This document shows positions 8,011 to 40,061 of a stretch of DNA of 64,000 bases, piece by piece. The notes beneath the pieces were generated by a model, which searched no databases, was not told the DNA's origin, and saw nothing but the letters and a program-made list of their open reading frames with translations. The position numbers and the translations under genes were made by a program. Each line of letters begins with the position of its first letter. The first letter of the stretch is position 1. Origin of the DNA: a virus (Duplodnaviria; Caudoviricetes). The stretch lies in the IMG/VR virus record IMGVR_UViG_3300025078_000002, positions 1 through 64,000 of that record, one strand, 5' to 3'.

Positions 8011-8038
8011 TGTAAAATTATTTTTTTTGTCATATAAT
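8011..8038 (+). promoter_or_regulatory. Putative promoter TGTAAA-N16-TATAAT upstream of thyX
   Basis: TGTAAA 8011-8016 and TATAAT 8033-8038. Confidence 0.7.
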
Positions 8039-8062
8039 CTTTATAACAAAGAAAGGATTCAT

Positions 8063-8764
8063 ATGGCAAATACACATTATCTTTATAACGATAATATAGG
8101 AAAAGTAGAACTAGTTCAAAGTATGGGAGCAGATATAACTGTTGTAAACTCAGCAAGAGTGTCTTTTGGCGTACAAAAAGACTTGTTAGATGAAAAAGAT
8201 AAGAAACTAATAAATTATCTTATTAAACATAAACATACTTCAACTTTAGAACACAATGTTGCAACTTTTAGAATTAAGGTGCCTTTGTTTGTTAGATCAC
8301 AACATCATAGACATAGAACTTGGTCTTATAATGAAGTAAGTAGACGATACACAGATGCAGATCTGCAGTTTTATATCCCTTCAAGTTACAGAACACAACA
8401 TAATTCAAATAGACAAGCTTCTAATTCTAATGATTTTATTAACCCACAAATGGATGTATATAATATTGAATTAGAAAGTAGACTGTGCAATGAAGCAGTA
8501 TCACATCATATTGACAACTCACTATTGCTCTTTGAAGATATGATTAAAAAAGGTGTTGCAAGAGAGCAAGCAAGAATGATTCTCCCCCAGAATCTATACA
8601 CAGAGTACTATGCTACAGCTAATCTAAATAACATATTAAAGTTTATTGAGTTAAGAACGCATGAAGGTGCACAATGGGAAATACAGCAGCTAGCTAATTC
8701 AATGTTAAATATAATAGAAGAAGTTTGGCCCGTGACTGTTTCTGCATATCGTTCTAAAAACTAG
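8063..8764 (+). CDS. thyX: Flavin-dependent thymidylate synthase
   Basis: VNSARVS, HTSTLEH, RHRTWSYNEVSRRY (canonical ThyX motif), AREQARMILPQ and HAQWEI-like segment. ATG 8063 after AAAGGA. Confidence 0.92.
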   Translation: MANTHYLYNDNIGKVELVQSMGADITVVNSARVSFGVQKDLLDEKDKKLINYLIKHKHTSTLEHNVATFRIKVPLFVRSQHHRHRTWSYNEVSRRYTDADLQFYIPSSYRTQHNSNRQASNSNDFINPQMDVYNIELESRLCNEAVSHHIDNSLLLFEDMIKKGVAREQARMILPQNLYTEYYATANLNNILKFIELRTHEGAQWEIQQLANSMLNIIEEVWPVTVSAYRSKN

Positions 8765-9181: not shown

Positions 9182-9412
9182 ATGAAATTACACGATAATT
9201 CAATTGCACATATTGCTAAAATAATTCAAATGGCTATTTTATCAGGTACAGATATTGTAGATCACTTAAGAATGGTAAGATTCAGTCCTATCGAAGATGA
9301 CTTTCTTGTTATTGATGAGGAATATGAAGAGATATTTAATTCTTCGATTAATAAAATGATGAATAACATACCAGCGACAGAAGACAATATTGAGAATGAA
9401 AAACAAGACTGA
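9182..9412 (+). CDS. Hypothetical protein
   Basis: AAAGGA RBS; co-linear 76 aa ORF in the operon. Confidence 0.65.
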   Translation: MKLHDNSIAHIAKIIQMAILSGTDIVDHLRMVRFSPIEDDFLVIDEEYEEIFNSSINKMMNNIPATEDNIENEKQD

Positions 9413-9779
9413 TAAGCTTGAAAGTATATTCACTAAACGTGAATCTTTTATGAATCTTATAAAACTAAAATACCCTTCAGCATATAATAATTGGCCTGTT
9501 GACATTTCCGATAAAGCTAGTCAAGTTATATTAAGAGAAACAGCACTTAAAGGTGTTGAGGAGATGTTTGAAGCACTTGGTCATCTTAAAAACTGGAAGC
9601 CGCATAGAGACACAGATCTTCCTGAGATTAATAGGGAAGAGTTTCTAGAAGAGATAGTTGATGCATTTAATTATTTCTTTTCATTAATCATCTTGATGGG
9701 AGTTGATGTTGATGAATTTTATTGTGCGTTTAACAAAAAAGATGAGATAATAAGAGATAGAATTAGTAAAAATTACTAG
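9396..9779 (+). CDS. All-alpha NTP pyrophosphatase (dimeric dUTPase / T4 gp56 dCTPase-like)
   Basis: EEMFEALGHLKNWKPH ... FLEEIVDAFNYF ... RDRISKNY: acidic metal-binding pattern and C-terminal RxxxxY. Confidence 0.75.
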   Translation: MKNKTDKLESIFTKRESFMNLIKLKYPSAYNNWPVDISDKASQVILRETALKGVEEMFEALGHLKNWKPHRDTDLPEINREEFLEEIVDAFNYFFSLIILMGVDVDEFYCAFNKKDEIIRDRISKNY

Positions 9780-9846: not shown

Positions 9847-10806
9847 TTGCCAATTAATAATAACTTAGAACCTGTATTGTTGCCTATGGATCTTAAATTT
9901 GGACAAGATCCTGTAACTAATTACATTAATAACTTAGAGTCACTCAACATTGAAGTTGTAGATGCGCCTACACAAGAACAAGCACAAAAAATTGCTTGGA
10001 ATATGACTAAGGCAACTTGGGCAGATTCACCTAGCGAAACTAGATTTGAGAATGCTTCTTTCAAAGAAGCTTCAAGTAATTTGCAAGATGTTTTAAACTT
10101 TAGAGCATTACCTACACCTATGGAGTGTTTAGGTTTTACATTTAAGATAAGTGGTATTGATACACAGACTGTTACGCATCTTATTCGTCATAGAGCTGGA
10201 TCATTTGCTGCACAATGCACTGGTGACAGAGACCTTCGAAATGACAACATTTTAGTTCCTGAATCTGTTGAAAATTCAGACTTCCACCATCGTTTTATTG
10301 AAGTAGCTGCAGCAGCAAAACAACTATACGCTGATATGGTTGATTCACGTGTAGTTTCTTTAATGGACGCTAGAGTTATTCTGCCTAAGTCTCTTGAAAC
10401 ATTTTATATTGCTAGGTTTAATCTTAAAGATTTGATTGGATTTATTAAACAGCGTCAAGATATGCAAATCCAGCCTGAAGTGGATAATATTATGGCTACA
10501 CGTATTGCGAGATTAGTTGTTGAAAGAATTCCCGAGGTTGCTTCCTGTTTAGACTTTAACAAGCCTGATATGCATTATGTGAGAACTTTTAGAGTTGAAC
10601 AACCTGATGGTACATTTACGTCCAAAGGAACAAATCTTTATCACCCAGAACCTAAAAATGATTTGTTTGAATTTAATGAAAACGATTCAATTTATCCTTG
10701 CCGTCGTGAAGAGATTAATGGGAATAAATCTGGTGAGGAAAAGATTTTTACAAGAATGTGGAATGAAGACGTTGAATTTATCAACTCAGTAAAAGATCAA
10801 ATTTAA
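9847..10806 (+). CDS. Divergent ThyX-family flavoprotein (second paralog)
   Basis: THLIRHRAGSFAAQCTGDR and DARVILPKSLETFYIARFNLKDLIGFIKQR are ThyX-like; extra C-terminal region. TTG start after AAGGAG. Confidence 0.75.
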   Translation: MPINNNLEPVLLPMDLKFGQDPVTNYINNLESLNIEVVDAPTQEQAQKIAWNMTKATWADSPSETRFENASFKEASSNLQDVLNFRALPTPMECLGFTFKISGIDTQTVTHLIRHRAGSFAAQCTGDRDLRNDNILVPESVENSDFHHRFIEVAAAAKQLYADMVDSRVVSLMDARVILPKSLETFYIARFNLKDLIGFIKQRQDMQIQPEVDNIMATRIARLVVERIPEVASCLDFNKPDMHYVRTFRVEQPDGTFTSKGTNLYHPEPKNDLFEFNENDSIYPCRREEINGNKSGEEKIFTRMWNEDVEFINSVKDQI

Positions 10807-10849: not shown

Positions 10850-11299
10850 ATGAAAAAGATTTATCTTGCAAGTGGTTGGTTCAACCCAGTCCAAGCAGAA
10901 GAACTTACTAACTTAGAAGACATTTTTGATGAAAGGAATGATTATTTTGATTTAGCGTCGCCAAGAAGGATTTTTGTTTGCCCACCTAGTGCCTCTAAAG
11001 AGGTTCAAGATGCTACTTTCGAGGGGAATTTACATCATATTCAAACAGCAGATTTTTTGCTTGTTAATACACGAGACAAGGATATCGGGACTATTTGGGA
11101 AACTGGTTACGCATACGCATTTGATAAGCCTATTATTTATTTTTGTGCAGGCTTGCCTAAAGGCGCTAAGTTTAATCTAATGTTAGCAAGAAGTGGTATT
11201 AAAGTTTGTACTTCTTTTGTTGAGCTAGAAGATTATCTAGATAGAGTTATTAAAAAGGGCGAACTCATAGAAGAGCCATACACAGATGCCATCGAATGA
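10850..11299 (+). CDS. Nucleoside 2-deoxyribosyltransferase / deoxynucleotide N-glycosidase family protein
   Basis: KIYLASGWF, ADFLLV and DIGTIWETGYAYAFDKPII (catalytic Glu motif). Confidence 0.85.
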   Translation: MKKIYLASGWFNPVQAEELTNLEDIFDERNDYFDLASPRRIFVCPPSASKEVQDATFEGNLHHIQTADFLLVNTRDKDIGTIWETGYAYAFDKPIIYFCAGLPKGAKFNLMLARSGIKVCTSFVELEDYLDRVIKKGELIEEPYTDAIE

Positions 11300-12427: not shown

Positions 12428-12670
12428 ATGGAAAAGTATAGTTCATATAAGAGCGGTTTAAAAATAGGAGACTACGTTCATTACGAATACAATTGTATTT
12501 TTGCTTCTTTTGTTGAGAGAAGTTTGATTTTAGATAGAAAGCATCTTTTTACAAAAGAGACTAGATGGGGAGAACGAAGTTTTTTTGAATATTCTGTATA
12601 TAACAATGGGAACGTAAAAAAAATAAGAACACAAGATATGAGAATTATAAATCGTGAAAGGACAAGCTAA
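12428..12670 (+). CDS. Small KOW/SH3-like hypothetical protein
   Basis: LKIGDYVHY...LILDRK pattern. Confidence 0.55.
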   Translation: MEKYSSYKSGLKIGDYVHYEYNCIFASFVERSLILDRKHLFTKETRWGERSFFEYSVYNNGNVKKIRTQDMRIINRERTS

Positions 12671-12671
12671 A

Positions 12672-13661
12672 ATGAGAATTGCAATAACTGGTGAAAAAGG
12701 TTTTATCGCTAGCAACTTATCAAATAAAATTAATAAATTTAGTCATGAATTTGTATCGTTAGATGAAAGCAAATATTCAGAAGGCTATGAAACTACTGAG
12801 AGTGGTGAAGTATGTGTGTATAGTAATAGCATCGAAAAATGGTCACAGCTTCTTTCAGACTTAGATGTTGATGTTGTTATACATAATGCTGCTGTTGTAG
12901 GAACTGATGTTGTTGCGTTAAACCCGGAGCATGCAATATCAACTAATGTGTTAGGAACACACATTATAACTGAGGCAGCTAATAATACGAATACAAAGAT
13001 TGTGTATATAGGGACAACAGTTATATATGATACGTATCTTTATCAAGAAAATGAAATCTATGAGGACAGCACAATATATCCTAGAACAAATTATGCTGTT
13101 CAAAAATATGCTGGCGAAATGACTGTTAAGAATAATGCAAAAAACTGGTTAGTAGTTAGACCGTTATTTGCTTATGGTGGTGTAGGAGATATGAATTCAC
13201 TTATATCAAAGTCATTATTTTGTATACATAATAATATAAATAATATAGATATGTTTTTAAATCCTGAAAAGATAAAGGATTATATGCATGTTGAAGATTT
13301 TTGTAGTAGTGTTATGGATTTAATTGTAAACGATATTAGTTATGAAGATTTCAACATTACAGCAGAGAATCCTTATAACACGTTAGAAATAGTTAGTTTA
13401 ATTGAAGAAGTGACTAGTAGAAGTTTAGAGTCAGTTATTAAGTGGCACCCTGAAACTGATTACTTGGGAAACCATAGATTAAGTAACGATAAATTTCTAG
13501 ACGTTATAGGGAAAAGTAGAACTAGAAGTCTTAAGGAAGGAATAAGACAATCTTGGGAGTCAATAAAAGAAATGGATAAATTTAATAAGTTTAATCCACT
13601 TAAACATTTAACAGAAGCAAAAGATAAAAACATTGATTTGAAGATGTTTTTCCCTAAGTGA
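12672..13661 (+). CDS. NAD-dependent epimerase/dehydratase (extended SDR)
   Basis: IAITGEKGFIA (GxxGxxA), VVIHNAA, YAVQK (YxxxK), VRPLFAYG and KDYMHVEDF. Confidence 0.88.
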   Translation: MRIAITGEKGFIASNLSNKINKFSHEFVSLDESKYSEGYETTESGEVCVYSNSIEKWSQLLSDLDVDVVIHNAAVVGTDVVALNPEHAISTNVLGTHIITEAANNTNTKIVYIGTTVIYDTYLYQENEIYEDSTIYPRTNYAVQKYAGEMTVKNNAKNWLVVRPLFAYGGVGDMNSLISKSLFCIHNNINNIDMFLNPEKIKDYMHVEDFCSSVMDLIVNDISYEDFNITAENPYNTLEIVSLIEEVTSRSLESVIKWHPETDYLGNHRLSNDKFLDVIGKSRTRSLKEGIRQSWESIKEMDKFNKFNPLKHLTEAKDKNIDLKMFFPK

Positions 13662-27718: not shown

Positions 27719-27746
27719 TGTAAATTTATTTTAAATATTATATAAT
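27719..27746 (+). promoter_or_regulatory. Putative promoter TGTAAA-N16-TATAAT
   Basis: TGTAAA 27719-27724 and TATAAT 27741-27746, upstream of the kinase-TS fusion. Confidence 0.7.
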
Positions 27747-27768: not shown

Positions 27769-28659
27769 ATGAGATTTTTTAATATAAACATTGAAGGTCC
27801 TGACTGTAGTGGTAAAACTACGTTATACAATAGACTCCATAAAGAAACAAGCTTTAAGTATAACATACAAGACAGAAGTTGTATGTCTATGTTTGTTTAC
27901 GCAAAGATGTATGGAAGAGAAGACACTTCACTTTGGTTTGACAAAGTTTTAGATGATCTAAAACGATTGGATACACTTTATATTGTGTTACTCCCGTCTG
28001 AAAGTGTTGTGCTTGATAGATTGCGCGTTAGAGGGGATGATTTTCAAGATGAAATAAGTGTTTTAGATGTAAGAAATCATTTTAGAAATATATCAAAAAT
28101 GGGTTTTGGTTCTTTTCCAAATGTGTTAGTATTAGAAGGAGACGACTTAGAGAAGAACGTTGAAGTTGCATTGTCATTTATTGACGCATTGAATGATATG
28201 CCCGGGCAGGAATTGATAAAGTCTTTAGTATTTAATAGTGGCAGAAATGAGTTGATTGATGTTGAGTGTAAAGAAGTAGTTGATAGAAGTAGTCTAGACT
28301 TGACAGTTTTAGATTTTCCTGAAGAAAAAGAATATTTTGAAAAAATTGAGTTTGAGTTTTTTAATAAAATATTTAGAGAGTTTGTGGGTTTAAACGAGCA
28401 TAATAAATCACAAAAGCATGATAGTAGAAGATTTATATACACTAGTGATAGTTGTATATCGATGATACATTTTTTGTGGCGTCAAAATAAATTAAATGTG
28501 TCGGCGTCTCTAAGGTCTTCAAATGTATCGAAAACTTTGTGGGCTGATTATGAATTTCTTAAGATACTTAGTGTAAGAGCAGCCAAAGAGATGTCTTTAC
28601 CTGAAGACATTGAGATAAATTTAACAGTCAATATTAGGTCTGCACATATTGTCCCTTAG
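27769..28659 (+). CDS. dNMP (thymidylate-kinase-like) kinase fused to a thymidylate-synthase-fold, dCMP-hydroxymethylase-like domain
   Basis: IEGPDCSGKTT and IQDRS (kinase). SRRFIY, SCISMIHFL, LRSSNVSKTLWADY and IRSAHI (ThyA/gp42 fold). Confidence 0.75.
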   Translation: MRFFNINIEGPDCSGKTTLYNRLHKETSFKYNIQDRSCMSMFVYAKMYGREDTSLWFDKVLDDLKRLDTLYIVLLPSESVVLDRLRVRGDDFQDEISVLDVRNHFRNISKMGFGSFPNVLVLEGDDLEKNVEVALSFIDALNDMPGQELIKSLVFNSGRNELIDVECKEVVDRSSLDLTVLDFPEEKEYFEKIEFEFFNKIFREFVGLNEHNKSQKHDSRRFIYTSDSCISMIHFLWRQNKLNVSASLRSSNVSKTLWADYEFLKILSVRAAKEMSLPEDIEINLTVNIRSAHIVP

Positions 28660-28668
28660 GAGAAGAAA

Positions 28669-29232
28669 GTGAATCCCAGTTTTATAGTGTATACAGGTCC
28701 TATGTTTGGTTCGAAGACTACGAGATTGATGGGTGAAATTGATCGTGCTACATATCGAGGTAGAAAAGTTATAGCGTTTAAAGCTAAAAAAGATAAGCGA
28801 TATAGTGTTGACAAGATAAGCACACATAGTGGAGGAAGATTTCCTGCTTTTTGTATTGAGAATGCTGAGGAGATTTTTAATTATTTAGATGAGCAAGATT
28901 GTAATTCTAATACTTTGGTCGCTGTTGATGAAGGGTTTATGATTGAGGGGATTGATAATGTGCTTATAAGTCTTTATAGAAAGGGAGTATCAGTTGTGAT
29001 AGCATCGATACAGTTAGATGCGAATGAGATTCCTTTTGAAAGTATAAAGAACATATTACCGTGGGCTACAAAAATTGAAATATGTCCGGCTGTTTGTACA
29101 GATTGTGATCAAGATGCGTATTTTACAGAGGCAATGTTTGATATTCATAATGCAACAGCAGAAGAAAAAGTTGGTTCTCACGGAATGTATGAGCCAAGAT
29201 GTGCAAAACATTATTCTACTTTTAAAGAATAG
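28669..29232 (+). CDS. tdk: Thymidine kinase
   Basis: YTGPMFGSKTT, VAVDEG, CTDC and YEPRC. Confidence 0.92.
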   Translation: MNPSFIVYTGPMFGSKTTRLMGEIDRATYRGRKVIAFKAKKDKRYSVDKISTHSGGRFPAFCIENAEEIFNYLDEQDCNSNTLVAVDEGFMIEGIDNVLISLYRKGVSVVIASIQLDANEIPFESIKNILPWATKIEICPAVCTDCDQDAYFTEAMFDIHNATAEEKVGSHGMYEPRCAKHYSTFKE

Positions 29233-29265: not shown

Positions 29266-30351
29266 ATGAATCAATTAATAGAAAATTATGTTAAAGTCTT
29301 TTTAAATGAGTCAACGCGAGACGAAAACTTTCAAGAATTAATTAAAATATTGTCATCTCAGAGAGTCAAAGACGGAGACACATCAGAAAAAATAAGTATT
29401 TTTTCAAAGATATACGATGATATGTTACGAGCATCACATTATCGAAACTTTTTTCACGAAGGAAATTTTGATCAAATAAAAGATATAATAAATAGAACTG
29501 CAACAAAACAAAATGTAAAAGACGCAATTAAGCACTTTAGCGCCCAAATGGAGACTTTGCCTGAAAATGAAAGAATTTTAAAAGGTTCATGGTGTCAAAT
29601 AAACTTAAAAAATATTAATACAAATCGTAGTATAACGAGAGGACAGTTAGACGATACTGAGGTTTCTCAAAACAATGCATCACACGTGCTAAGAACTCAT
29701 CAAATGTATTTTACACTACAGCATAAAGACTTGCAGTTTGATAAGTCACTTTCTCCAAAAAAATTAGAAAAAGCATTTGGTGAACATATTAAAAATTTTG
29801 CTGATGCGATGTTAGAGGTAAAAGACTTTGCAGAAATAAATAATGTAATAGAAAGTATACAAATTACTGAGTTTAAGACGATAAATGTATTAAACCATTC
29901 AGTTGATGATTTATTAAAGAATCACAAGAATAGCTTTGTAAAATATTTTACTGATGCTGATAATTTAAAAATTTATCTGTCAGGTGCTGATAGAGGTCAA
30001 ACTGATTTGCAATCTAAAAAACAAAAAATATATGAAAAGGTCATACAAGTATTTGAAAGCAAAGGATTTGTCAATACAGAAAGAGATCGACAAATTTTTG
30101 GTGTTGATTTTGATATTATTAGAGCTGATAAGACGTCAAAAAGAACTTCGTACGGCGCTGTAACTGCTTACGTTTTAATGAATAATCTATTTAAAAGTGA
30201 AAGCGCAAGAAATAAAATTATTAATGGCAGTCAAAAAGAATTTTGGAGTTTAGTTAACAAATCAGAAGACTGGATAAATGATCCAGATAATTCTACAACT
30301 ATTGCAAAATTGATTGTAAATCCTCTTAATAGCATTTATTTTAGAGACTAA
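29266..30351 (+). CDS. Hypothetical protein with LIE...FLNE leader
   Basis: 361 aa ORF; ATAGTTA 30 nt upstream. Confidence 0.7.
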   Translation: MNQLIENYVKVFLNESTRDENFQELIKILSSQRVKDGDTSEKISIFSKIYDDMLRASHYRNFFHEGNFDQIKDIINRTATKQNVKDAIKHFSAQMETLPENERILKGSWCQINLKNINTNRSITRGQLDDTEVSQNNASHVLRTHQMYFTLQHKDLQFDKSLSPKKLEKAFGEHIKNFADAMLEVKDFAEINNVIESIQITEFKTINVLNHSVDDLLKNHKNSFVKYFTDADNLKIYLSGADRGQTDLQSKKQKIYEKVIQVFESKGFVNTERDRQIFGVDFDIIRADKTSKRTSYGAVTAYVLMNNLFKSESARNKIINGSQKEFWSLVNKSEDWINDPDNSTTIAKLIVNPLNSIYFRD

Positions 30352-31858: not shown

Positions 31859-32278
31859 ATGTTAGATATAAATAGGCCTTCTTGGGACAAAATCTGGATG
31901 AAGATGGCAGAAACAATTGCGCAGCGTAGTCATCACCCTACATTTAAGGTAGGAGCAATCATAGTAACGTCAGATAATACTCAAGTGCTTTCTTTAGGGT
32001 ATAATGGTAATGCCAAGGGAATGTCAAACGTACCTCAATCTGATGTACCTGGTTGTAGTGGTTTGCTGCACGCTGAGATAAATGCTTTATTAAAGTTAGA
32101 TTTCAATAATCCAAAAGACAAAGTTATGTATCTGACGTTAAGTCCTTGTAAAAATTGTGCTATGGCTGTAATTAATAGTGGTGTAAAAGAAGTTGTATAT
32201 AAAGAAGAGTATAGAGATAAGACAGGTATTAATTTATTGAAAGGTTCTGGGATAAAAATTAGAAAGATTAATATATAG
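31859..32278 (+). CDS. dCMP deaminase (ComEB/cytidine deaminase family)
   Basis: KVGAII, GYNG, HAEINAL and LSPCKNCA. Confidence 0.9.
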   Translation: MLDINRPSWDKIWMKMAETIAQRSHHPTFKVGAIIVTSDNTQVLSLGYNGNAKGMSNVPQSDVPGCSGLLHAEINALLKLDFNNPKDKVMYLTLSPCKNCAMAVINSGVKEVVYKEEYRDKTGINLLKGSGIKIRKINI

Positions 32279-39368: not shown

Positions 39369-40061
39369 ATGAGTGATATTAAAAAATTGATAAATGAAGC
39401 TATTGATGAAGCGTTGAATAGTAGTGATAGTAATAAAGAAGTAATTAGCGAAGCTTACGTAACTCAAGCTGTCAAGTTTAATTTAAATACAGAATTGTTA
39501 TCTTCAAAAACGAAAGCAGAGCATCAAAAATTATTAGAGGGTTATTCTAAAAAACTTAATGAGATCTCAGCAAAGTTAGATGGGTGTGATAAGAGTGGAG
39601 CAAATCTAAATCATTCAGAGTTTAGAAGTCTAAAGGTTGATGAGGCGTATAATCATAATGCAGCATTTTTGCACGGTCTTTATTTTGAAAACATAAGTGA
39701 TTTAAACAGTCAAATCAATATGAACTCTTTGTCTTATATGAAGATTACTAGAGACTTCGGCACATTTGATGCTTGGCAAGAAGACTTCGTCGCGTGTTGT
39801 CTCTCAGCTAGGAATGGATGGGCAGTAACGTTTTATAATCCATATTTGAAAAGATATATTAACACAGTTATAGATTTACACAGCAGTAACGTAATGATTG
39901 GTATGATACCTGTGATTGTTATTGATTGTTGGGAGCATAGTTACTATAGAGATTATATGACAAATAGAAAAGCTTACGTCTTCGGTATGATGAAAGAGCT
40001 TGACTGGAATGTTATTGAAGATCGCATTAAAAAGTCAGAAAAACTAAGCAAGATTTTGTAA
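39369..40061 (+). CDS. sod: Fe/Mn superoxide dismutase with N-terminal leader extension
   Basis: EHQKLLEGY, AYNHNAAFLHGLYF, FGTFDAW, NGWAV and IDCWEHSYYRDY (H, H, D, H ligands). Confidence 0.88.
   Translation: MSDIKKLINEAIDEALNSSDSNKEVISEAYVTQAVKFNLNTELLSSKTKAEHQKLLEGYSKKLNEISAKLDGCDKSGANLNHSEFRSLKVDEAYNHNAAFLHGLYFENISDLNSQINMNSLSYMKITRDFGTFDAWQEDFVACCLSARNGWAVTFYNPYLKRYINTVIDLHSSNVMIGMIPVIVIDCWEHSYYRDYMTNRKAYVFGMMKELDWNVIEDRIKKSEKLSKIL

What the first reader, a model, noticed from the sequence alone, without database searches (positions are those of the whole stretch)
27769..28659. dNMP kinase fused to a compact thymidylate-synthase-fold domain with the dCMP-specific Asp
Seen: aligning LRSSNVSKTLWADY to E. 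coli ThyA QRSCDVFLGLPFNI puts Asp at Asn177, as in T4 gp42 (MRSNDVVFGFRNDY). The catalytic Cys (SCISMIHF) and SAHI are kept, the conserved RSxD Asp is Asn, and the domain is only about 150 aa. Known: Asp at this position gives dCMP specificity in hydroxymethylases. Inference: since ThyX and TK already supply dTMP, this enzyme makes and phosphorylates a C5-modified dCMP. Its chemistry may not be hydroxymethylation given the reduced folate-binding part.
Basis: partly seen in the sequence, partly recalled or inferred. Interest (0 to 1): 0.78.

Follow-up and report, generated by a model that had tools for sequence, protein, structure and literature searches.

The report
Kinase fused to mini thymidylate-synthase domain
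An uncultured marine giant phage encodes one protein that joins a small nucleotide kinase to a half-size, cytosine-type thymidylate-synthase-like enzyme, so it probably makes an altered cytosine nucleotide for its DNA, though no one has shown which.

Summary
ORF 27769-28659 (+, 296 aa) has two domains. Residues 1-145 are a YorR/thymidylate-kinase-like P-loop kinase. Residues 146-296 are a 150-residue thymidylate-synthase (TS) fold. The TS-like domain keeps the nucleophilic Cys229, the phosphate-binding Arg220/Arg221 and Arg249/Ser250, and His293. It has Asp260 at E. coli ThyA Asn177 and Asn252 at Asp169. It lacks the folate-binding helices and the C-terminal lid.

Its nearest solved structures are the flavin/O2-dependent dCMP 5-hydroxylases (phage HY126 AfhB), followed closely by ordinary TS, T4 gp42 and MilA. 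Asp177 plus Asn169 is the published signature of 5-hydroxy-dCMP synthases, and those gene clusters also carry a YorR-like kinase.

My best reading is a fused enzyme that makes and phosphorylates a C5-modified dCMP without folate, most likely 5-hydroxy-dCMP. This is unproven:
- N and D swap repeatedly at position 252 across the family.
- No DNA glycosyltransferase was found in a complete relative.
- C-containing palindromes are still avoided.

New here: the cultured Geobacillus phage GR1 carries the same parts as separate genes. Its mini-TS gene overlaps the end of a rewired ThyX paralog that also occurs in the window and in all five relatives' records checked.

This scan has already found the same fusion in other genomes. 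I found no description of it in the papers searched.

The parts
27719..27746 (+). Promoter-like TGTAAA-N16-TATAAT, 22 nt upstream of the ATG
Evidence: Read directly. The generic sigma-70 scan did not list it because its -35 hexamer differs from TTGACA. Function is inferred.
27769..28659 (+). Whole ORF, 296 aa: kinase fused to a minimal TS-fold domain
   Evidence: There are 332 homologues, mostly 295-297 aa, in marine metagenomes. The C-domain alone finds 123 clusters at 50% identity, 70 of them 285-340 aa with the domain at the C-terminus.
27769..28203 (+). N-terminal domain (res 1-145): YorR/thymidylate-kinase-like P-loop kinase. P-loop GPDCSGKTT (res 10-18), DR motif (D35 R36), lid R84..R88-G-D90
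   Evidence: Profile A2 against PDB: YorR 2axp E 2.6e-16, then thymidylate kinases. VIA-align Z 13.4 over 140 residues to 2axp. Conservation of G10, D12, G15, K16, D35, R36, R84, G89 and D90 in at least 70 of 77 members.
28204..28656 (+). C-terminal domain (res 146-296): minimal thymidylate-synthase fold. Predicted elements: helix 146-156, strand 161-170, helix 187-206, strands 223-225, 230-238 and 241-248, helix 257-274, strand 282-293. The protein ends 3 residues after His293.
   Evidence: No Pfam PF00303 or NCBIfam hit.
28426..28431 (+). R220 R221 in DSRRF: counterpart of the E. coli ThyA R126/R127 pair, which binds the nucleotide phosphate across the dimer
   Evidence: Aligned SRR to SRR with T4 gp42 and RB69 gp48. 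Conserved in 74/77 and 71/77 members. The dimer role is inferred from TS knowledge.
28453..28455 (+). Cys229 (DSCIS): counterpart of the catalytic nucleophile (E. coli C146, gp42 C148)
   Evidence: Conserved in 73/77 members.
28513..28524 (+). R249-S250-S251-N252 (RSSN): counterpart of E. coli R166-S167-C168-D169, so Asn stands at the D169 position
   Evidence: Across the family position 252 is N in 47, D in 23, H in 3 and E in 2 of 77 members. It switches at least 9 times on the tree. It is N throughout the window's own clade.
28546..28548 (+). Asp260: counterpart of E. coli N177 and gp42 D179 (cytosine-specifying)
   Evidence: Conserved in 76/77 members.
28645..28647 (+). His293 in SAHI: counterpart of E. 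coli H207, which contacts the deoxyribose 3'-OH
   Evidence: Conserved in 73/77 members.
28669..29232 (+). Thymidine kinase, next gene; syntenic with the fusion in relatives down to 35% identity
   Evidence: Pfam TK E 1.3e-32. Synteny.
31859..32278 (+). dCMP deaminase, syntenic partner
   Evidence: Pfam E 3e-23. Synteny.
9390..9779 (+). All-alpha nucleotide pyrophosphohydrolase (candidate dCTPase/dUTPase)
   Evidence: phrog_12184 E 1.3e-14 and phrog_173 E 9.6e-6. A relative's copy hits Pfam dUTPase_2. Substrate not tested.
9847..10806 (+). Rewired ThyX paralog (RHR kept; the dUMP loop reads SFAAQCTGDR): candidate partner of the mini-TS domain
   Evidence: Pfam Thy1 E 1.9e-19. Alignment to T. 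maritima ThyX. Present at 57-86% identity in 5 of 5 relatives' records. Geobacillus phage GR1 is the only one of 50,697 phage records with it at E<=1e-20.
10850..11299 (+). Nucleoside 2-deoxyribosyltransferase-family protein: conserved member of the same module
   Evidence: Pfam E 1.4e-12. 41% identical to the GR1 homologue. Synteny.
12654..13661 (+). NAD-dependent NDP-sugar epimerase/dehydratase (SDR)
   Evidence: Pfam E 2.1e-25. phrog_540 E 8.7e-45. In distant relatives one or two further SDR genes lie directly after the fusion gene.
8027..8764 (+). Canonical ThyX (dTMP supply)
   Evidence: Pfam Thy1 E 6.1e-52.

Best explanation
The gene encodes a bifunctional enzyme of phage deoxypyrimidine metabolism.

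The C-terminal 150-residue TS-fold domain binds dCMP: Asp260 reads the cytosine, while Arg249/Ser250 and Arg220/Arg221 from the partner subunit of a TS-like dimer hold the phosphate. Cys229 attacks C6, so that C5 becomes nucleophilic. The folate-binding helices, the C-terminal lid and the folate-activating Asp are all missing. The group added at C5 therefore does not come from methylene-tetrahydrofolate bound in the usual way. The most likely chemistry is 5-hydroxylation by a flavin hydroperoxide, as in phage HY126 AfhB and RB69 gp48.

The fused YorR-like kinase handles the phosphorylation step next to it. It either converts the modified dCMP to the diphosphate, or feeds dCMP in from deoxycytidine. 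Phage DnaE would then incorporate the modified dCTP.

Shown: the fold, the residue register, conservation, the fusion and the synteny. Inferred: substrate, dimer, chemistry, order of steps and incorporation into DNA.
For: - TS fold with a cytosine-type active site.
- The nucleophile and all phosphate ligands are nearly invariant in 77 diverse members, which argues for catalysis.
- The top structural matches are the dCMP hydroxylase entries 9iqc/9iqu: Z 10.4 over 140 residues, TM by query 0.61-0.66.
- Like RB69 gp48 (237 aa in the alignment, SAHV near its end) and the AfhB chain 9iqu_A (234 aa, alignment running to residue 222), the domain ends right after the SAH motif.
- Lee et al. 2026 (PMC13326640, sections 24 and 28) report N177D plus D169N as the signature of 5-hydroxy-dCMP synthases. 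Nine diverse D169N homologues made 5hodC in their assay. The window protein has both residues.
- The same paper lists a YorR/thymidylate-kinase-like kinase inside the 5hoC clusters of DLP3 (gp78, top hit 3kb2 YorR), RB69 (gp45) and RL38J1 (gp214). The window's N-domain has the same top structural hit and weak direct similarity to RB69 gp45 (E 8e-5; 88%).
- The PDB title of 1bjg states that the D169N-equivalent mutant does not open the folate imidazolidine ring (listed).
- No PF00303-type TS occurs in five relatives' records, so this is their only ThyA-fold protein.
- NDP-sugar SDR genes lie next to the fusion in distant relatives.
- GR1 has the separate homologues next to a glycosyltransferase and an NAD(P)H nitroreductase-type flavin reductase.
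Against: - By profile comparison the domain is closer to folate-dependent T4 gp42 (94%, E 1e-7) than to the hydroxylase RB69 gp48 (63%, E 6.8e-5).
- The structural lead of 9iqc over ordinary TS is under 1 Z unit, which counts as a tie.
- Position 252 is N in 47 and D in 23 of 77 members and flips at least 9 times on the tree. The D169N marker therefore does not define this family.
- About 58 residues that AfhB has between helix B and the SRR motif are absent. A flavin site is not demonstrated.
- The glycosyltransferase models tried (PF00534, PF00535, PF13692) find nothing in the complete 239.5-kb relative G001. No Pfam glycosyltransferase appears among the window ORFs scanned.
- CATG (observed/expected 0.54) and GTAC (0.60) are among the four most avoided 4-mers of this genome. 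That is not expected if every C were shielded from restriction.
- There are no biochemical data for any member.
Confidence: 0.4

Rival explanations
1. A two-protein enzyme. The mini-TS domain only binds and activates dCMP through its Cys. The conserved rewired ThyX paralog (9847-10806) supplies the cofactor half, either reduced flavin or a flavin-carried methylene. The product would be 5-methyl-, 5-hydroxymethyl- or another one-carbon dCMP rather than 5-hydroxy-dCMP. The kinase then phosphorylates it.
For: - The losses are complementary. The mini-TS lacks the cofactor-binding parts. The ThyX paralog keeps RHR, the R147 and R174 equivalents but has a rewritten dUMP loop.
- The paralog occurs in 5 of 5 relatives' records at 57-86% identity, better conserved than the fusion itself.
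- Among 50,697 phage records only Geobacillus phage GR1 has the paralog at E<=1e-20. GR1 is also the only record found here with clear kinase-domain and mini-TS homologues.
- In GR1 the mini-TS gene starts on the last base of the paralog gene, at 29720.
- GR1 and the window share NDT (41% identity), the paralog (43%), the kinase (32%) and the mini-TS (32%), while their DnaE proteins are only 23% identical.
Against: - In the marine phages the two genes lie 6-17 kb apart.
- No fused paralog/mini-TS protein was found.
- Binding could not be tested.
The paralog may therefore work alone.
- Whether the paralog still binds flavin or folate was not tested.
Confidence: 0.2
2. No DNA modification. The TS-like domain is a dCMP-binding or dCMP-processing accessory of a pyrimidine salvage kinase. 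It might confer dC/dCMP specificity, sense the pool, or promote Cys-assisted deamination. The phage DNA would then carry ordinary cytosine.
For: - The gene sits in a general nucleotide-salvage block: TK, dCMP deaminase, HAD phosphatase and, in relatives, a DHH phosphoesterase and a 5'-nucleotidase.
- C-containing palindromes CATG and GTAC are avoided.
- No glycosyltransferase was found in the complete relative.
- The DNA assembles from ordinary shotgun libraries of at least 18 studies.
- A few family members lack the Cys (P0123, P0135, P0212, P0237).
Against: - Near-invariance of the nucleophilic Cys (73/77), which only covalent catalysis needs, together with the full set of nucleotide ligands.
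- A separate zinc dCMP deaminase is already present.
- Small C5 groups such as OH or CH2OH neither block sequencing nor stop every restriction enzyme.
Confidence: 0.2
3. A folate-dependent dCMP hydroxymethylase of the T4 gp42 type. It is merely shortened, and the fused kinase domain replaces the missing lid over the folate.
For: - The best sequence-profile match is T4 gp42.
- The whole-protein model has pTM 0.91, so the two domains are predicted to pack rigidly.
- 23 of 77 members keep Asp at position 252.
Against: - The window protein and its whole clade have Asn at the D169 position.
- The segment that carries E. coli W80/W83/Y94 and the C-terminal 50-odd residues are absent.
Confidence: 0.1

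Closest known systems
Flavin/O2-dependent 5-hydroxy-dCMP synthases of the TS superfamily: phage HY126 AfhB (PDB 9iqu, 9iqc), RB69 gp48, DLP3 gp80, RL38J1 gp216 (Lee et al. 2026, PMC13326640)
   Same: TS fold, Cys nucleophile, Asp at E. coli N177, Asn at D169, a SAH[IV] motif with the chain ending just after it, and a YorR-like kinase in the same pathway cluster. They are the top structural matches.
   Different: They are 217-238 aa stand-alone proteins. This domain is 150 aa, lacks about 58 residues between helix B and the SRR motif, and is fused to the kinase. The sequence relation is weak (hhalign 63%). N/D at position 252 is not fixed in the family. No flavin binding or glycosyltransferase partner is shown here.
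T4 gp42 deoxycytidylate hydroxymethylase (PDB 1b49, 1b5d, 6a9a), working with the separate gp1 dNMP kinase
   Same: It is the best profile match (E 1.4e-4; 94%, E 1e-7). It has the same Cys, SRR, RS and Asp register, and its pathway follows the same logic of a dCMP-modifying enzyme plus a kinase.
   Different: gp42 has 246 aa, keeps Asp at the D169 position and has the folate site, and its kinase is a separate protein of another family. The window protein has Asn252 and no folate-binding segment.
Bacillus SPbeta prophage YorR (PDB 2axp, 3kb2) and the YorR-like nucleotide kinases of 5hoC clusters (DLP3 gp78, RB69 gp45)
   Same: Closest relatives of the N-domain: E 2.6e-16 and Z 13.4. They share the P-loop, DR motif and RxxxRGD lid.
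   Different: They are stand-alone proteins of 173-182 aa with no published substrate that I could find. Here the kinase is trimmed to 145 aa and fused.
Geobacillus phage GR1 (OK896991.1) genes UDY80706 (P-loop, 145 aa), UDY80709 (annotated FAD-dependent thymidylate synthase) and UDY80710 (hypothetical, 151 aa)
   Same: Unfused homologues of the kinase domain (97.9%, E 3.5e-13), the ThyX paralog (43% identity, E 3e-87) and the mini-TS domain (96.6%, E 5.6e-10). NDT and DnaE lie nearby.
   Different: The genes are separate, and SRR reads ERQ in the GR1 mini-TS. A glycosyltransferase, an HD protein and a nitroreductase-type flavin reductase sit in the GR1 cluster, but they have no tblastn match in this genome or in the complete relative G001. 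GR1 is a 79-kb temperate siphovirus of a thermophile. Its DNA composition has not been analysed (PMC10237291).
MilA CMP hydroxymethylase with MilB N-glycosidase (mildiomycin pathway)
   Same: MilA has a TS fold with a cytosine-type Asp (Z 8.6). It is paired with an NDT-family enzyme, as the module is here.
   Different: MilA is a 318-aa folate enzyme that acts on CMP in antibiotic synthesis. It has no kinase fusion.

Membership tests
Thymidylate synthase superfamily (ThyA fold) | Three-dimensional fold | tested here: met
   The top 7 of 48,161 PDB representatives are all TS-fold chains (Z 10.4-8.6, 134-140 of 152 residues). The next hit scores 5.8. Foldseek gives the same picture.
Thymidylate synthase superfamily (ThyA fold) | Match to the curated family model PF00303 | tested here: not met
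   No PF00303 hit for the protein at E<=1. The model also finds nothing over its cut-off in five relatives' records. Only a weak phrog_160 hit, E 0.027.
Thymidylate synthase superfamily (ThyA fold) | Catalytic Cys and nucleotide-phosphate ligands (R126/R127, R166, S167), and His207 | tested here: met
   C229, R220/R221, R249/S250 and H293 are in register and conserved in at least 71 of 77 members.
Thymidylate synthase superfamily (ThyA fold) | Folate-binding segment (E. coli residues about 66-122 with W80/W83/Y94) and the C-terminal lid | tested here: not met
   Only 75 residues precede the SRR motif and 3 follow His293. The predicted elements are helix, strand, helix, four strands with one helix, with nothing more.
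5-hydroxy-dCMP synthase (AfhB / RB69 gp48 type) | Asp at E. coli N177 together with Asn at D169 (signature of Lee et al. 2026) | tested here: met
   D260 and N252. Across the family, however, position 252 is N in 47 and D in 23 members and flips at least 9 times.
5-hydroxy-dCMP synthase (AfhB / RB69 gp48 type) | Acidic residue at E. coli L143 | tested here: inconclusive
   By ungapped register L143 corresponds to S226 (D 28, S 23 of 77). The next residue, D227, is Asp in 45 of 77. No structural superposition at residue level was available.
5-hydroxy-dCMP synthase (AfhB / RB69 gp48 type) | Flavin binding and O2-dependent hydroxylation of dCMP | not testable with these tools
   This needs protein chemistry.
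5-hydroxy-dCMP synthase (AfhB / RB69 gp48 type) | Closer to known hydroxylases than to folate-dependent relatives | tested here: inconclusive
   By structure 9iqc is first, but within 1 Z unit of ordinary TS. By profile the domain is nearer T4 gp42 than RB69 gp48.
5-hydroxy-dCMP synthase (AfhB / RB69 gp48 type) | Gene cluster with DNA glycosyltransferase(s) and NDP-sugar synthesis genes | tested here: inconclusive
   SDR NDP-sugar enzymes are present. No glycosyltransferase was found in the window, nor in complete relative G001 with three models. Three partial relatives have GT-B genes far from the fusion. GR1 has one in the cluster.
T4 gp42-type dCMP hydroxymethylase | Asp at the D169 position and a folate site | tested here: not met
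   N252 in the window protein and throughout its clade. The folate segment is absent.
YorR / thymidylate-kinase-like P-loop kinases | P-loop, DR motif, Arg-rich lid and fold | tested here: met
YorR / thymidylate-kinase-like P-loop kinases | Phosphoryl acceptor (dNMP or deoxynucleoside) | not testable with these tools
   Structural neighbours include both deoxyadenosine kinase (Z 13.0) and dTMP kinases (Z 12.4).

The most novel reading that the evidence does not exclude
The mini-TS domain and the rewired ThyX paralog are two halves of one enzyme. One half keeps the ThyA-type Cys and the nucleotide site. The other keeps a ThyX-type flavin site. Together they perform a C5 chemistry on dCMP that neither ThyA nor ThyX enzymes are known to do. 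The fused kinase commits the product to DNA in an abundant clade of marine giant phages, and the same would hold in the cultured Geobacillus phage GR1.
Probability: 0.15. Interest if true: 0.85.

Novelty: new variant of a known kind. Interest (0 to 1): 0.62.

Why it matters
If it is active, this is the smallest TS-fold catalyst so far. It would be a TS-superfamily member that has shed its folate site entirely, and a natural fusion linking the YorR-like kinases of 5-hydroxycytosine clusters to the base-modifying step. The family is common: 332 homologues at E<=0.001 and 123 clusters at 50% identity. Parts of this stretch turn up in seawater metagenomes of at least 18 studies. A modified cytosine in these phages would affect how marine viral DNA is restricted, sequenced and counted. 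The separate-gene version in the cultured phage GR1 makes the question testable with ordinary nucleoside LC-MS.

Tried and rejected
- Complex prediction (dimer of the C-domain) was not available. Neither dimerisation nor binding to the ThyX paralog was tested.
- No model coordinates are handed out. I could not inspect the cofactor pocket or the domain interface.
- The look-up of sequencing runs listed only Logan contigs: no raw or long reads and no RNA holder. There was no signal-level test of modification and none of expression, and read laying was not used.
- tblastn of the whole protein and of two distant members against 50,697 phage records gave nothing useful. A permissive search with the C-domain did lead to GR1.
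- The look-up of encoding contigs for two distant members gave only 1-2 kb contigs.
- The search for related loci failed with the diverse alignment A2 and with P0207.
- A search for longer fused forms found none, which is weak evidence.
- NCBIfam has no model for the C-domain.
- The unknown gene between TK and dCMP deaminase in distant relatives could have been a glycosyltransferase. It is a DHH/DHHA1 phosphoesterase.
- The PurA-like gene downstream of the window could have been PurZ (2-aminoadenine pathway). It matches canonical PurA at E 1e-63 and PurZ only at 1e-12.
- N or D at position 252 does not track the presence of a neighbouring SDR gene.
- The He et al. paper on AfhB is not in the library, so the flavin-contacting residues could not be compared.
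Full report
**What is there.** ORF 27769-28659 (+) starts with ATG and encodes 296 aa. A TGTAAA-N16-TATAAT motif lies at 27719-27746. The window is about 31% G+C and comes from a 74.8-kb virus record. Around the gene lie:
- DnaB, dUTPase, ribonucleotide reductase and ClpP;
- canonical ThyX, a ThyX paralog, an NDT-family protein and an NDP-sugar SDR;
- a DnaE in pieces;
- then the fusion, thymidine kinase, a HAD protein and dCMP deaminase.

**N-terminal domain.**
- Pfam gives only sub-threshold P-loop kinase hits.
- A profile of 77 diverse homologues hits the SPbeta prophage protein YorR (2axp) at E 2.6e-16, then thymidylate kinases.
- The model superposes on YorR with Z 13.4 over 140 residues. 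Deoxyadenosine kinase (Z 13.0) and dTMP kinases (Z 12.4) follow.
- The P-loop, the DR motif and the RxxxRGD lid are nearly invariant.

This is a real small nucleotide or nucleoside kinase. Which phosphoryl acceptor it uses cannot be told from sequence.

**C-terminal domain.**
- Neither Pfam nor NCBIfam recognises it.
- A family profile (A3) searched against all PDB sequences puts T4 dCMP hydroxymethylase first (E 1.4e-4). The HY126 dCMP hydroxylase entries 9iqu/9iqc (E 4e-3) and ordinary TS come next.
- hhalign gives 94% (E 1e-7) to T4 gp42 and 63% (E 6.8e-5) to RB69 gp48.
- All alignments agree on the register: DSRR on the SRR pair, Cys229 on the nucleophile, RSSN on R166-S167-x-D169, Asp260 on N177, SAHI on the His207 motif.
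- The AlphaFold2 models are confident: pLDDT 96.9 for the whole protein and 93.7 for the domain.
- An exhaustive structural search returns only TS-fold chains above Z 8: 9iqc 10.4, three TS at 9.8-9.3, a fourth at 9.2, gp42 8.7 and MilA 8.6. Noise starts at 5.8.
- Foldseek ranks 9iqc/9iqu first, with TM by query 0.61-0.66.

The predicted elements correspond to TS helix A, strand i, helix B, strands ii-iv, helix J and strand v. The block that carries W80, W83 and Y94 in E. coli ThyA is absent, as is everything after His207. That mapping rests on the secondary-structure order and on the alignment ranges. I had no residue-level superposition.

**Family.**
- The protein has 332 homologues at E<=0.001, nearly all 295-297 aa and many from Tara and other marine assemblies.
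- The C-domain alone finds 123 clusters at 50% identity. Seventy of these are 285-340 aa with the domain at the C-terminus. The shorter ones look mostly like fragments.
- In 77 diverse members Cys229, Arg220, Arg221, Arg249, Ser250, Asp260 and His293 are each kept in 71-76 sequences.
- Position 252 is Asn in 47 and Asp in 23 members. On a tree it changes at least 9 times. The window's own clade is uniformly Asn.
- Four members lack the Cys.

**Comparison with what is known.** Lee et al. 2026 (PMC13326640) showed that RB69 gp48 and DLP3 gp80, both TS homologues, convert dCMP to 5-hydroxy-dCMP with O2 and a loosely bound flavin.
- They report N177D plus D169N as a predictive signature, validated on nine diverse homologues.
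- They cite He et al. for the flavin-bound HY126 structure.
- Their Table 1 lists a YorR/thymidylate-kinase-like 'nucleotide kinase' inside each 5hoC cluster (DLP3 gp78, RB69 gp45, RL38J1 gp214).

The window protein has both signature residues, ends just after SAH as gp48 does, and is literally fused to a YorR-like kinase. Its N-domain aligns weakly with RB69 gp45 (E 8e-5). These points make 5-hydroxylation the single most likely chemistry.

**Against over-reading.**
- The profile relation favours gp42.
- The structural lead of AfhB is a tie.
- The N/D marker is unstable in this family.
- The domain is about 58 residues shorter than AfhB before the SRR motif.

**Context in relatives.** IMG/VR loci at 35-83% identity keep the order DnaE, fusion, TK, dCMP deaminase. 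In the more distant ones several further genes join the block:
- a pyrophosphohydrolase, a 5'-nucleotidase fusion, the ThyX paralog, the NDT-like gene and an SDR lie directly before DnaE;
- one or two more NDP-sugar SDR genes lie directly after the fusion;
- a DHH phosphoesterase lies between TK and the deaminase.

No PF00303-type TS occurs in five relatives' records. Glycosyltransferases of the GT-B type occur in three partial records, far from the fusion. None was found in the complete, terminally repeated 239.5-kb record G001. Glycosylation is therefore not supported as a general feature.

**New lead.** A permissive tblastn with the C-domain touched Geobacillus phage GR1. Its annotated region reads, in order:
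1. DHH phosphoesterase
2. a DUF3967 protein on the other strand
3. NDT
4. thioredoxin
5. HD protein
6. glycosyltransferase
7. hypothetical protein
8. P-loop protein (145 aa)
9. RNase H
10. NAD(P)H nitroreductase
11. 'FAD-dependent thymidylate synthase'
12. hypothetical protein (151 aa)
13. hypothetical protein
14. DnaE-type PHP polymerase
15. dUTPase

The matches to the window are:
- The 145-aa protein matches the kinase half (97.9%, E 3.5e-13).
- The 151-aa protein matches the mini-TS half (96.6%, E 5.6e-10). It keeps Cys, RSSN, Asp and His.
- The 'thymidylate synthase' is 43% identical (E 3e-87) to the window's ThyX paralog and only marginally similar to the canonical ThyX.
- The mini-TS gene starts on the last base of the paralog gene.

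The paralog occurs in 5 of 5 relatives' records at 57-86% identity. At E<=1e-20, GR1 is the only one of 50,697 phage records that has it.

Aligned to T. maritima ThyX, the paralog keeps RHR and the Arg147/Arg174 equivalents. The dUMP loop is rewritten, with Cys in place of Ser88.

Four parts (NDT-like, ThyX paralog, kinase, mini-TS) thus form a module shared by a thermophile siphovirus and the marine giant phages, while their DnaE proteins are only 23% identical. This raises the rival that the mini-TS and the paralog work together. It also gives a cultured system for testing. The GR1 paper does not examine DNA composition (PMC10237291).

**Weak counter-evidence from composition.** With a maximal-order Markov expectation, CATG (observed/expected 0.54, z -6.5) and GTAC (0.60, z -5.0) rank 2nd and 4th among the 136 strand-symmetric 4-mers of this genome. 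The effect is milder in G001. Continued avoidance of C-containing palindromes does not fit a cytosine that is fully shielded from type II restriction. It is compatible with a small C5 group, with partial replacement, or with no modification.

**Verdict.** I file it as a new variant within the TS superfamily of dCMP-modifying enzymes. It does not reach the Pfam TS model, and it is not established as a 5hodCMP synthase.

Earlier follow-ups of this scan reached the same reading on other genomes, so it is not new to the scan. I found no description in the papers searched.

Noticed in passing
window 9847-10806: The ThyX paralog has a rewritten dUMP loop (RHRAGSFAAQCTGDR, with Cys where T. maritima ThyX has Ser88). 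It is more conserved across relatives (57-86% identity) than the kinase/mini-TS fusion. Among cultured phages it occurs only in Geobacillus phage GR1. In three distant relatives' records only this type matched, with no second ThyX at E<=0.001.
   Followed up: partly
L067 (OK896991.1 22000-36000), Geobacillus phage GR1: A cultured phage carries unfused kinase, ThyX-paralog and mini-TS genes beside NDT, HD, a glycosyltransferase and a nitroreductase-type flavin reductase. The phage is 32% G+C. Its DNA has never been analysed for modified bases.
   Followed up: partly
L001 6108-9728 (G000:C1:66108-69728, just past the window): Three purine genes stand in a row: a GMP reductase/IMPDH-family gene, adenylosuccinate synthetase and a PurB-like lyase. 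The synthetase is canonical PurA (E 1e-63), not PurZ. This looks like a GMP-to-AMP conversion route for an AT-rich genome.
   Followed up: partly
whole G000 and G001: The non-palindromic word CTTA/TAAG is the most under-represented 4-mer in both genomes (observed/expected 0.72, z -9.3 and 0.68, z -18). CTTC, CACC and CATC are strongly over-represented. Unexplained.
   Followed up: no
whole G000: Four of the ten most avoided 4-mers are palindromes: CATG 0.54, GTAC 0.60, AATT 0.85 and CGCG 0.41.
   Followed up: partly
BFVD entry A0A3G1L3Q7, Synechococcus phage S-CBWM1: An uncharacterised 151-aa protein of a cultured cyanophage matches the mini-TS model (TM 0.60 both ways, rmsd 4.0). It may be another stand-alone minimal TS fold. 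tblastn shows no detectable sequence relation.
   Followed up: no
L025 322-1326; L044 11891-12868: Relatives encode a volactin-type actin homologue (Pfam E 7.6e-66) and a di-haem cytochrome c peroxidase (E 8.7e-51) near the nucleotide block.
   Followed up: no
window 39369-40061, 51147-52784, 56528-57208: Phage-borne Fe/Mn superoxide dismutase domain, a Cpn60-type chaperonin, and a small HIGH-motif nucleotidyltransferase (NMN adenylyltransferase-like).
   Followed up: no
family members P0123, P0135, P0212, P0237: A few full-length homologues have lost the catalytic Cys, and some also the His. They may be inactive copies or misaligned.
   Followed up: no
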